In this document: positions 8,802 to 36,300 of the stretch, one piece after another | Layout: every line of letters begins with the position of its first letter | Numbering within the stretch: the stretch's first letter is position 1 | Assembly (NCBI RefSeq): GCF_009914755.1 | Contig: NC_060925.1 | Source of the DNA: the human T2T-CHM13v2.0 reference genome, Homo sapiens | Length of the DNA: 64,000 bases | Direction: 5' to 3' (one strand) | Notes under the pieces: model-generated | Seen by the model: only the letters and a program-made list of their open reading frames with translations | The model's database searches: none | Told to the model about the DNA's origin: nothing | Position numbers and translations under genes: made by a program

Positions 8802-9819
8802 ATGGGGAAAAAACAGAGCAGAAAAGCTGAAAATTCTAAAAATCTGAGCGCCCCTCCCCTTCAAAAGGAACACAGCTCCTCGCCAGCAACGGAACAAAGC
8901 TGGATGGAGAATGACTTTGATGAGTTGAGAGAAGAGGGCTTCAGACAATCAAAGTTCTCCAAGCTAAAGGAGGAAGTTCGAACCCATCACAAAGAAGCTA
9001 AAAACCTTGAAAAAAGATTAGATGAATGACTAACTACAATAACCAGTGTAGAGAAGTCCTTAAATGATCTGATGGAGCTGAAAACCATGGCACAAGAACT
9101 ACGTGATGAATGCACAAGCTTCAGTAACCAATTCGATCAACTCAAAGAAAGGGTATCAGTGATTGAAGATCAAATGAATGAAATGAAGTGACAAGGGAAG
9201 TCTAGAGAAAAAAGAGTAAAAAGAAAAGAACAAAGCCTCCAAGAAATATGTGACTTTGTGAAAACACCAAATCTACGTCTGATTGGTATACCTGAAAGTG
9301 ACGGGGAGAATGGAACCAAGTTGGAAAACACTCTGCAGGATATTATCCAGGAGAACTTCCCCAACCTAGCAAGGCAGGCCAACATTCACATTCAGGAAAT
9401 ACAGAGAACGCCACAAAGATACTCCTTGAGAAGAGCAACTCCAGGACACATAATTATCAGATTCACCAAAGTTGAAATGAAGGAAAAAATGTTAAGGGCA
9501 GCCAGAGAGAAAGGTCAGGTTACCCACAAAGGGAAGCCCATCAGACTAACAGCGGATCTCTCGGCAGAAACCCTACAAGCCAGAAGAGAGTGGGGGCCAA
9601 TATTCAACATTCTTAAAGAAAAGAATTTTCAACCTAGAATTTTTATCCACCCAAACTAAGCTTCATAAAAGTGAAGGAGAAATAAAATCCTTTACAGACA
9701 AGCAAATGCTGAGAGATTTTGTCACCACCAGGCCTGCCCAACAAGAGCTCCTGAAAGAAGCACTAAACATGCAAAGGAACAACCGGTACCAGCCACTGCA
9801 AAATCATGCCAAATTATAA
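8802..9819 (+). pseudogene. L1 ORF1p of copy A, disrupted
   Basis: MGKKQSRK... with stops (e.g. 9027-9029) and frameshifts near 9645-9670. Confidence 0.92.
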
Positions 9820-9882
9820 ACACCATTGATGCTAGGAAGAAATTGCATCAACTAAGGAGCAAAATAACCAGCTAACATCATC

Positions 9883-32600: not shown

Positions 32601-33321
32601 GGGAGAAAATTTTCGTAACCTACTCATCTGACAAAGGGCTAATATCCAGAATCTACAATGAACTCAAACAAATTTACAAGAAAAAAACAAACAACCCCAT
32701 CAAAAAGTGGGTGAAGGACATGAACAGACACTTCTCAAAAGAAGACATTTATGCAGCCAACAGACACATGAAAAAATGCTCATCATCACTGGCCATCAGA
32801 GAAATGCAAATCAAAACCACTATGAGATACCATCTCACACCAGTTAGAATGGCCATCATTAAAAAGTCAGGAAACAACAGGTGCTGGAGAGGATGTGGAG
32901 AAATAGGAACACTTTTACACTGTTGGTGGGACTGTAATTAGTTCAACCATTGTGGAAGTCAGTGTGGCGATTCTTCAGGGATCTAGAACTAGAAATACCA
33001 TTTGACCCAGCCATCCCATTACTGGGTATATACCCAAAGGACTATAAATCATGCTGCTATAAAGACACATGCACACATATGTTTATTGCGGCATTATTCA
33101 CAATAGCAAAGACTTGGAACCAACCCAAATGTCCATCAATGATAGACTGGATTAAGAAAATGTGGCACATATACACCATGGAATACTATGCAGCCATAAA
33201 AAATGATGAGTTCATGTCCTTTGTAGGGACATGGATGAAACTGGAAATCATCATTCTCAGTAAACTATCACAAGAACAAAAACCCAAACACCGCATGTTC
33301 TCACTCATAGGTGGGAATTGA
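29637..33321 (+). pseudogene. L1 ORF2p of copy B, disrupted, with an in-frame RT deletion
   Basis: Stops (29725-29727, 30384-30386), frameshifts and a 144-bp deletion at 31500/31501. Confidence 0.93.
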
Positions 33322-36300
33322 ACAATGAGAACACATGGACACAGGAAGGGGAACATCACACTCTGGGGACTGTTGTGGGGTGGGGGTATGGGGGAGGGAT
33401 AGCATTAGGAGATATACCTAATGCTAAATGACGAGTTAATGGGTGCAGCACACCAGCATGGCACATGTATACATATGTAACTAACCTGCACATTGTGCAC
33501 ATGTACCCTAAAACTTAAAGTATAATAATAATAAAAAAAATAGAAAAGATTCACAAAACTAAGTGTTGAATTTTTGAGAAAATAAAATTATTAAACTTTT
33601 AGCTTAAGTGAGAAGGAAAAAAGTTTCAAATAAATAAAAATATAAATGAAAGAGCAGACATTACAACTGACACCACAGAAATACAAAGGATCATAAAAGA
33701 GTACTATGAACAATTATGAGCCAACAAATTGGATAATGTAGGAGAAACTGGTAATCCCTAGACATATACAACCTACCTAATAACTGAAGACAACCTAGAG
33801 ACTGAATTATGAAAAAATAGAAAATCTGAACAGACCAATAACAAGTAGATTTAATCAGTAGTTTTTTAAGTCTCCCGTCAAAGAAAAGTATAGAACCAGA
33901 TTACTTCACTGGTGAATTCTACCAAACATTTGCAGAAGTAATGCTAATCCTTCTCAGTCTTCCCAAAAACTTCACAGAGGAGAGCACTTCCAAACTCATT
34001 TTACAAACCTATTTTCTCAAGAATGTACAGGAGAGAATACTACCAAATTCATTTTTGTATCATCATTACCCTGACACCAAAGTCAAAGCAAATTACTACA
34101 AGAAAAGAAAAATATAGGCCAATATCCAGGATGAACATGATGCAAAAATCCTCAACCAAACACTAACAAACCAGATTCAACAACACATTAAAAGTATCAT
34201 ACACTATTATCAAGTTGGCTTTATAACTAGGATACAAGAAGAGTTCAACATAAGAAAATTAATAAATGTGATGTACCCATTAATAGAATAAAAGATAAAA
34301 AATTATATGATCATCTCAATAGATGCAGAAAGAAAATGTGACAAAATTAAAAATCTGTTCATGATTTTAAAAAAACTCTCAAAAATTAAGTATAGAAGAA
34401 ATAAACCTCAACATATTAAAGACCATATATGGCAAGCCCACAGCTAATACCATACTCAACAGAGAAAAATTGAAAGCTTTTCCTCCAAGGTCAGGAACAA
34501 CACAAGGATACCCATTCTCATCACTTGTATTCAATACAGTACTGACAGTACAAGCCAGAGTAATTAGGCAAGAAAAAGAAATAAAAGGAATCCAAAATGG
34601 AATGTAAGTAAAATTATATGATCTTTTACATAGAAAACCCTTAAAACACCACCAGAAGTTATAACAACTAATAAAGTAATTAAGTAAAATGTTAAAATAA
34701 ATAATCAACATATGAAAATCAGTATCTTCATACACTGAAAATGATTATACAAAAAACAAATCAATCACATTTATAATAGCATCAAAAATACTTAGAAATA
34801 AATTCATTCAAGTAAATAACATATTTGTACACTGAAAACTACAAAGTGAACAAGTAAAACTGAAGAAGACACAAATAAATATAAACCTCATGTCGATAGA
34901 CCGGGAAAATTAATATTGCCAAAATGTCCATACTAAACAAAGCAATCTATGAATTCAAAGCAACCCCTATGAAAATTACAATGACATTTTTCACAAGAAT
35001 AGAAAAAACAATCCTAAAATTCTTATGGAACCACATAAGACATCAAATAGCCAAAGCAAACTTGAGCGAAAAAACAAAGGGAAGGCATTACACTACCTGA
35101 TTTCAAAACATATGATAAACCTGTAGTAATCAAGCAACATGGCACTAGCATAAAAATAGACATATAGACCAACAAGACAGAAAACATCCCAGAAATAAAT
35201 CCACATATTTACTATCAACTGATGTTCAACAAAGGTGTCAAGAACATACCATAATAAAATAACAGTTTCTTCAATAAATAGTGTTGGAAAGATTGTCTAT
35301 CCACATGCAAAAGAATGAAATTGTATCCCTTGTACCATACGTACACAAAAATCAACTCAAAATGAATTAAAGACTTAAACATACAATGTGAAACTGTAAA
35401 ACAATAAAACATAGAGGGAAAGCTTCTTGACCTTAGTCTGAGTAATGAATTTTTGTACATGGTATCAAAAGCACAGACAACAAAAGCAAAAAATAGACAA
35501 ATGGGATTGTATCAAATCAAAAAAATCAACTGAGTGACGAGACAACCTATAGAATACAAGCAAATATTTGCAAACCATATATCTGATAAGAGGTTAATAT
35601 ACAAAATACATAGGCAACTCAAATAATTCAATATCAATCAATAAATAGAAATAACCATTTTCAAAATGAGCCAAGGACCTGAATAGACATTTCTCTAAAG
35701 AAGTCATTCAAATGACCAGCAGGCAGGTATATAAAAAGGTGCTCAACATCACTAATCATCAGGCAAATGAAAATTAAAATCATAATGAAATATCACCTCA
35801 CAGCTGTTAGAATGGTTATGAGCAAAGAGACAAAGGATAACAAGTGTCGCCAAAAATGTGAAGAAAAGGAAATCCTTGTGCACACTGTTGGGAATGTAAG
35901 TTAATATGGCCATTATGAAAAACAGTATGGAGAGGATCATGGCAGATGGGAGGCAGGAGTAGATTGCAGTTCCCACTCCGATGGACAGAGCAGCATGTGA
36001 AGTACTGCATCATGAACTTTTGCTCTAGAACTACTGCAGGAATAAATCAGGAAAGCCAAGAGAACCCACCAACCCTCTAAAGGAAGCGGATTGCTCCTGC
36101 AGGACCTGGGAAACATCCCAAATACTCTAAGTGCCCAAACTGTAAACGTGTAAAAGGGGGATCATCCGCCCCTGAACACACACCCTGACTGGGGAACCTG
36201 AAGGTCTACACCAAAGACAATATTCTAACCTTACCTGGAGCTAAGTCAATTTAGAGAACCGAGAGAAATACAGGGGTAGATGAAACAGTGGGAAAAGCCC

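What the first reader, a model, noticed from the sequence alone, without database searches (positions are those of the whole stretch)
9440..33390. L1 copies of different subfamilies share private mutations, including the same frameshift and stop codon: local L1-L1 gene conversion
Seen: copies A and B have different TSDs and different ORF1 coiled coils (PA5-like vs PA3-like), so they are separate insertions. They still share these rare changes (A/B positions): TPRH>TPGH (9444/29197); +2 AA frameshift cttcatAAAAgtgaagg (9667-70/29421-24); catCatg before the ORF2 ATG (9882/29636); STLDRS>STTDRS dinucleotide (10337-38/30093-94); NSSTT followed by TAG at the Trp codon (10628-30/30384-86); caaaaGtgatag (10999/30759); 3'UTR gTATggggg (13776-78/33387-89). 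Established: L1 retrotransposition prefers its own (cis) proteins, so inactivating lesions are not expected to come from active source elements of two subfamilies. Inference: repeated short-tract non-allelic conversion between neighbours ~19.75 kb apart, interleaved with copy-specific sites. Consensus states are recalled, not aligned.
Basis: partly seen in the sequence, partly recalled or inferred. Interest (0 to 1): 0.85.

Follow-up and report, generated by a model that had tools for sequence, protein, structure and literature searches.

The report
Neighbouring L1 copies swap short patches
Separately inserted, broken L1 retrotransposon copies in an AGBL4 intron carry the same rare mutations as their neighbours, and L1 pairs elsewhere up to a few hundred kilobases apart do too, likely because DNA repair copies short patches from nearby L1s; this is known for Alu repeats but over a much shorter distance.

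Summary
Real, and wider than reported. All seven shared changes are at the stated places. TT>AC has 5 carriers among 6006 genome-wide matches, three of them A, B and C in this window. The +AA frameshift has 4 carriers against 7132 common-state matches: A, B, a copy D 260 kb away, and one distant. A and B differ at 116 of 193 subfamily-informative sites, so they are separate insertions. The allele sets (A,B,C versus A,B,D) cannot fit one tree. The pair is not special. Among 55 other chr1 L1 copies, pairs under 400 kb apart share 36 rare-allele events against 6.3 expected; the excess is about 2x at 0.4-1 Mb and absent beyond 1 Mb. Genome-wide carrier lists show the same decay. Best explanation: short-tract (up to about 100 bp) non-allelic gene conversion from nearby L1s in either orientation. 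That is known for Alu within about 10 kb; I found no L1 equivalent in 10 paper searches. Not tested: reads, other haplotypes, apes, chromatin domains. One claimed site (9882) is common, and A has no clean target-site duplication.

The parts
7776..13925 (+). L1 copy A, full length, broken ORFs, among the oldest group of the panel
27522..33547 (+). L1 copy B, near full length with a 140-bp deletion in ORF2, younger than A, inserted in an older L1
50189..51345 (-). L1 copy C, inverted 5' piece (ORF1 end to ORF2 endonuclease); carries TT>AC (50387-50388), the 9978 allele (50749) and catC
51341..51815 (+). L1 copy C, sense 3' piece; shares the 13738 allele with A
9444..9444 (+). A>G shared A/B (B 29197); 27 carriers genome-wide
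9667..9670 (+). +AA frameshift shared by A, B (29421-29424) and D (C1:49.534 Mb, outside the window); 4 carriers genome-wide
9882..9882 (+). catC shared by A, B (29636), C, D; common (8 of 46) but regionally clumped; weak evidence
10247..10349 (+). 103-bp run identical in A and B, holding TT>AC (10337-10338) and old-type states at 10267 and 10270; likely donor side of a tract
30003..30105 (+). same run in B; likely acceptor side (B has old-type states only here, 2 of 25 sites)
10616..10630 (+). C>A at 10616 and the ORF2 stop at 10628-10630, shared A/B (30372, 30384-30386)
10999..10999 (+). T>G shared A/B (30759); 27 carriers genome-wide
13776..13778 (+). 3'UTR double change shared A/B (33387-33389); 29 carriers genome-wide

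Best explanation
L1 copies that inserted separately share rare mutations with copies up to a few hundred kilobases away, likely because germline break repair now and then uses a nearby L1 as template and copies a short patch without crossover (non-allelic gene conversion). Shown: local sharing, separate insertion ages, allele sets that no tree fits, short identical runs, both orientations, decay with distance. Inferred: a break or nick in one copy, invasion of a 90-95% identical neighbour on the same or the sister chromatid, synthesis of tens to about 100 bp, return to the original locus, fixation by drift. Direction is inferred for one tract (old-type into B). Back-of-envelope rate for A/B is about 2-3e-7 per bp per generation (5 core events per 35 private alleles of A; B's age of 12-18 My is recalled); a typical near pair is several-fold lower.
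For: Genome-wide rarity with local concentration. Chance that three list-consecutive copies are among 5 carriers of 6006 is about 1.7e-6, post hoc. 59-copy panel, non-CpG two-carrier events under 400 kb: 44 versus 9.5 expected in 56 pairs; 36 versus 6.3 in 40 pairs without A, B, C, D; 10 versus 1.3 in 13 pairs of a replication set; 0 of 2000 position shuffles reach these. The excess holds in pairs differing at 30% or more of informative sites, which cannot be duplicates: 12 versus 1.7 (0-60 kb), 6 versus 1.7 (60-400 kb), 8 versus 2.8 (0.4-1 Mb). Carriers of the same allele lie 8-400 kb apart in 12 of 4777 pairs against 4 of 13751 for different alleles, and 20 of 4560 against 4 of 8160 for a further allele. 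Near-shared alleles have the transition fraction of private mutations (27 of 51; singletons 708 of 1463), distant ones are transition-rich (173 of 250). Multi-site tracts of 11-57 bp occur in other near pairs. B has old-type states at 2 of 25 sites, both inside the TT>AC run.
Against: One assembly only; no reads, other haplotypes or apes. The replication set supports only under 60 kb (0 events versus 0.6 expected in 6 pairs at 60-400 kb). Without the C5 98 Mb cluster the further allele shows 9 versus 4 pairs, p=0.015, and no excess at 150-400 kb. Carrier-list pairs were not checked for segmental duplication beyond a recalled exclusion list. One near pair (L061/L073) proved to be a duplicate. 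Runs around shared sites (median about 50 bp) are not clearly longer than background runs (median 34, upper quartile 65). No GC bias was seen (20 W>S, 21 S>W), whereas Harpak et al. report one for gene duplicates. The panel comes from one 65-Mb stretch of chr1 and near pairs were picked on purpose.
Confidence: 0.8

Rival explanations
1. The patches are copied through RNA or cDNA: a local transcript (for example the AGBL4 pre-mRNA that spans A, B, C and D, or a transcript of A) templates repair or is captured when a new L1 inserts.
For: A takes part in nearly all shared alleles among A, B, C, D; B/C share one weak allele apart from the triple, and B/D and C/D no substitution apart from catC. 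All four lie within the AGBL4 span (hub annotation). cDNA-mediated conversion is described for Ty and Tf2 (PMC6598467, passage).
Against: The same excess appears at many other places. A has young-type states at 3 of 12 late-switch sites against 4 of 96 in eight other old copies, suggesting A also received (weak). Diffusible cDNA would not explain the distance decay.
Confidence: 0.08
2. Independent recurrent mutation, with regional mutation spectra or local template switching, makes the same changes in neighbours.
For: TT>AC creates short direct repeats and B's stop state is a perfect 8-bp palindrome (seen in sequence); both recur at distant loci. Some alleles are common (9978: 188 of 6752; 11739: 85 carriers).
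Against: 3 of 5 and 3 of 4 carriers of two complex changes are local. Expected counts already scale with each copy's own mutation load, and near-shared alleles lack the transition excess of recurrent ones.
Confidence: 0.04
3. Shared descent: the neighbours are old local duplicates or daughters of a local source, later reshaped.
For: True for L061/L073, which share a 5' inversion junction and 27 bases of non-L1 sequence. C and D end their inverted pieces within 4 bases and match at 21 of 24 informative sites.
Against: A and B differ at 116 of 193 informative sites along their whole length, are separated by two well-supported forks, and have unrelated flanks. +AA groups A,B,D while TT>AC groups A,B,C in the same region, which no tree fits.
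Confidence: 0.04
4. Assembly or polishing cross-talk between L1 copies.
For: Only one assembly was examined.
Against: Mis-mapped reads would come from the most similar copy anywhere, not from a 92-95% identical neighbour 20-260 kb away, and would give no decay with chromosomal distance (inference). The like effect for Alu was reported in 2010, before this assembly existed (via PMC6598467, PMC8230782).
Confidence: 0.04

Closest known systems
Sequence homogenization of neighbouring Alu elements by non-allelic gene conversion (Aleshin and Zhi 2010; not held, seen only as summarised in PMC6598467 and PMC8230782)
   Same: Neighbouring copies share non-diagnostic mutations, falling with distance.
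   Different: Reported range about 10 kb; here 6-7x under 60 kb, 3-5x at 60-400 kb, about 2x at 0.4-1 Mb, in 6-kb L1 copies of different ages.
Non-allelic gene conversion in human gene duplicates (Harpak et al., 10.1101/135152, passages)
   Same: Rate 2.5e-7 per bp per generation is close to my rough A/B figure; short tracts.
   Different: Their mean tract is 250 bp (interval 63-1000), estimated at under 5% divergence and GC-biased; here runs are at most about 100 bp (182 for B/C), copies are 5-8% apart, and no GC bias was seen in a small sample.
Interlocus gene conversion in segmental duplications (Vollger et al., PMC10172114, passages)
   Same: Donor-to-acceptor transfer between paralogues, including intrachromosomal events.
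   Different: Mean called length 6.26 kb in 98-99% identical duplications found with 1-kb windows (window size recalled); the patches here would be too short for that method.
Cohesin-driven RAD51 homology search (PMC12701822, abstract and passages)
   Same: Search domain of about -800 to +700 kb; donors at +441 and +563 kb are used; similar scale to the decay here.
   Different: Induced breaks in cultured cells with near-identical donors; no link to L1 or the germline shown, and domain boundaries were not tested here.

Membership tests
Non-allelic gene conversion between transposable element copies | Copies are separate loci of separate origin | tested here: met
   Unrelated flanks; 116 of 193 informative sites differ, distinct tree positions. 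A's target-site duplication not found.
Non-allelic gene conversion between transposable element copies | Shared derived alleles beyond recurrence | tested here: met
Non-allelic gene conversion between transposable element copies | Local tree conflict (mosaic) | tested here: met
   A,B,C versus A,B,D allele sets; old-type states in B inside the shared run
Non-allelic gene conversion between transposable element copies | Rate falls with distance | tested here: met
   the 60-400 kb range was not reproduced in the small replication set
Non-allelic gene conversion between transposable element copies | Non-reciprocal transfer with donor unchanged, dated on a phylogeny | not testable with these tools
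   Needs ape orthologues or polymorphism; direction inferred for one tract only
Non-allelic gene conversion between transposable element copies | GC bias | tested here: inconclusive
   20 W>S and 21 S>W near, 88 and 119 far
Segmental or tandem duplication | Homologous flanks and most private alleles shared | tested here: not met
   A/B share 3 two-carrier sites against 35 and 27 singletons; a true duplicate pair, L008/L009, shares 43 of about 50
TAD-limited, cohesin-guided homology search | Sharing drops at domain boundaries at equal distance | not testable with these tools
   No Hi-C data; only the scale agrees
L1PA5 / L1PA3 subfamilies | Diagnostic positions against named consensuses | not tested
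   No consensus library; relative age only

The most novel reading that the evidence does not exclude
Rare alleles shared between L1 copies form a genome-wide fossil record of the germline homology search: each L1 exchanges short patches with others inside a roughly 1-Mb chromatin domain, some copies (A here; perhaps one among six carriers at C5:98.2-98.8 Mb) act as hub donors, and stops and frameshifts spread locally from copy to copy without retrotransposition.
Probability: 0.3. Interest if true: 0.8.

Novelty: new variant of a known kind. Interest (0 to 1): 0.55.

Why it matters
If it holds genome-wide, L1 copies do not age independently: dating by divergence, subfamily calls and source-element inference inherit a local mosaic signal, and some variants called inside L1 are conversions or look like mapping errors when they are real. 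With thousands of long copies, the distance decay gives a way to measure how far ectopic repair reaches in the human germline and to test whether chromatin domains bound it. For this locus alone the consequence is small: four dead intronic copies.

Tried and rejected
Whole-genome k-mer scan in a script: not possible, so rarity rests on 12 pattern searches and a panel of 60 copies (41 non-focal, 44 copies, 60, 59). Dropped before counts: L009 (duplicate of L008), L073 (duplicate of L061), L040-L042 (picked for sharing), CpG columns, sites within 4-5 bases of a gap, pairs overlapping under 300 bases; in the carrier lists, the focal copies, Y, acrocentric arms under 20 Mb, C9 under 0.3 Mb and C2 96-98 Mb (recalled as duplication-rich), and pairs under 8 kb. 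Rejected as evidence: 10772 (alignment effect of B's 5-base insertion), 11739 (85 carriers, and B's letter sits at its deletion junction), 13328 (next to a gap in B), 9882 (common). 5' region: no excess for pairs under 30 kb (0 versus 2.3 expected, 5 pairs); 3' region: excess only at 30-60 kb (8 versus 1.6) (small panels). A/B as an outlier: rejected, L064/L065 has 5 events and L053/L054 has 4. The six-carrier cluster on C5 could not be examined, so duplication there is open. Earlier scan findings were not available. Aleshin and Zhi 2010 was not held. PMC13470658 (passages) added nothing. No supplements were opened; those of PMC7827986 and 10.1101/135152 (Fig. S9, distance) may bear on novelty.

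Full report
Anatomy. The window (human chr1, AGBL4 intron, hub annotation) holds a full-length L1, A (7776-13925), a near full-length one, B (27522-33547, lacking A 11740-11879), and an inverted-truncated one, C (50189-51815). A and B differ at 469 of 6022 aligned bases, most in the first 1.5 kb. Homology stops at the element ends. B has a short A-rich target-site duplication and C a 20-bp one; none was clear for A.

Observation. Exact pattern searches of the whole assembly gave: TT>AC 5 carriers of 6006 matches, namely A, B, C, one on C9 and one on C23; +AA 4 carriers against 7132 common-state matches, namely A, B, a copy D at C1:49.534 Mb and one at C1:104.7 Mb; the stop with a changed preceding base 3 carriers; 9444 and 10999 27 each; the 3'UTR change 29. 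The tool warns that repeat counts can be lower bounds but states that these pattern counts are whole. 9882 is common, 8 of 46 other copies, though half of those lie together at C1:33.5-34.1 Mb. Further sharing: A/B 10616; A/C 9978 and 13738; A/D 9740, 9843, 11393; 11393 has 54 carriers and 9978 has 188 of 6752.

Not descent. A and B differ at 116 of 193 informative sites across their length and sit on either side of two supported forks in a 45-copy tree. In one 700-bp stretch +AA groups A, B, D and TT>AC groups A, B, C; no tree fits both. A real duplicate pair shares 43 of about 50 private alleles; A and B share a handful. That broken ORFs are rarely propagated (cis preference) is recalled knowledge, not tested.

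Tracts and direction. Identical runs around the shared A/B sites are 14-103 bp; later mutation shortens such runs, and background runs have median 34 bp. The 103-bp run with TT>AC also holds the only 2 of 25 sites where B has the old-type base, so that patch likely moved into B from A or C; of five copies near B on the ladder, three have 0, one has 1 and one has 3 such states. A has young-type bases at 3 of 12 late-switch sites against 4 of 96 in eight old copies, a weak sign of the reverse flow. Nearly all sharing among the four copies involves A, which may make it a hub, but A was also my reference.

A general effect. The random-pair control showed that the top sharers were neighbours. I counted non-CpG alleles carried by exactly two copies over 3 kb of ORF1/ORF2, merged sites within 50 bp, and scaled expectation by each copy's singleton rate, calibrated on pairs over 1 Mb apart. 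In 59 copies the observed/expected events were 14/2.1 (under 25 kb), 14/2.3 (25-60 kb), 4/1.4 (60-150 kb), 12/3.6 (150-400 kb), 16/7.0 (0.4-1 Mb), 26/26.7 (1-3 Mb). Without A, B, C, D: 36/6.3 under 400 kb in 40 pairs. In a set fetched afterwards as replication: 10/1.3 in 13 pairs, all of it under 60 kb. No shuffle of 2000 reached these ratios. Same orientation 26/3.6, opposite 18/5.9 (orientation taken at one site). The excess stays in pairs of clearly different subfamily state. One near pair was a duplicate and was removed. A/B has 3 such events and ties for third.

Independent check. In the genome-wide carrier lists, with focal copies and suspected duplications removed, same-allele pairs lay 8-400 kb apart in 12 of 4777 cases and different-allele pairs in 4 of 13751 (p=5e-5); the rate ratio was 2.6 at 0.4-1 Mb and 0.96 at 1-3 Mb. 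For the 9978 allele (first 100 of 188 listed; 96 on C1-C6 used) it was 20 of 4560 against 4 of 8160, or 9 of 4005 against 4 of 7650 without a six-carrier cluster on C5. Pairs within a cluster are not independent, so these p-values are optimistic. Near-shared alleles are 27 of 51 transitions, like singletons (708 of 1463), while distant ones are 173 of 250, as expected if near ones are copied and distant ones recur.

Mechanism. Most likely non-crossover repair from a nearby L1 template. The steps from break to fixation are inferred. RNA-templated copying, regional recurrence, local descent and assembly cross-talk are weighed under rivals. A rough rate for A/B, worked by hand with a recalled age for B, is 2-3e-7 per bp per generation, near the 2.5e-7 reported for gene duplicates (10.1101/135152, passages).

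Known and new. Neighbour homogenization is established for Alu within about 10 kb (PMC6598467, abstract and passages; PMC8230782, passages; the original was not held). A recombination signal in 1.3-2.8% of duplicated L1 pairs is reported without distance analysis in the passages I saw (PMC7827986). Kilobase-scale conversion is mapped in segmental duplications (PMC10172114, passages). Ten searches of the open library (listings and abstract starts) showed no paper on distance-dependent sharing among L1 copies; subscription papers were not searched, and single cases of L1 conversion are recalled from the literature. The 0.4-1 Mb fade matches the RAD51 search domain measured in cultured cells (PMC12701822, abstract and passages); this is an agreement of scale only.

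Verdict. A real feature, a known kind of process, seen in a repeat family and over a range I did not find described. The locus is one example, not an exception. Interest 0.55, mostly for the genome-wide test it opens.

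Noticed in passing
L061:1388-3020 and L073:1388-3016 (C1:60.39 and 60.32 Mb): Two inverted-truncated L1 copies 75 kb apart share the same inversion junction and 27 bases of non-L1 sequence but have unrelated flanks beyond; they match at the first 11 informative sites and differ at 9 of the later 26, so an old local duplicate later made mosaic.
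   Followed up: partly
window 51341-51345 and L043:4820-4823: C and D, 303 kb apart, end their inverted pieces within 4 bases of each other in L1 and match at 21 of 24 informative sites; C lacks about 2.9 kb after the junction. C may derive from a D-like copy, or this is a favoured junction.
   Followed up: partly
G000:C5:98184268-98848426: Six L1 copies within 660 kb carry the 9978 allele (188 of 6752 genome-wide): a local spread or a duplication.
   Followed up: no
L016-L019 (C1:33.5-34.1 Mb): All four panel copies in this stretch carry the catC allele though they sit at different places on the age ladder.
   Followed up: partly
window 31497-31500 and 11739: B's 140-bp deletion junction has a C at the same place where A and D carry a non-majority C; it lengthens the junction microhomology from 3 to 4 bases. 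The allele has 85 carriers, so chance is possible.
   Followed up: partly
window 13926-14000: About 60 bases between A's poly(A) tail and a weak candidate target-site repeat; possible 3' transduction.
   Followed up: no
window 40622-41525 and 42906-43154: Self-complementary tandem repeat arrays interrupting an older L1 (37691-42907).
   Followed up: no
L064/L065 (C1:66.07-66.08 Mb): Strongest near pair: 8 shared rare sites in 5 events, 14 kb apart, including a 57-bp three-site tract.
   Followed up: partly
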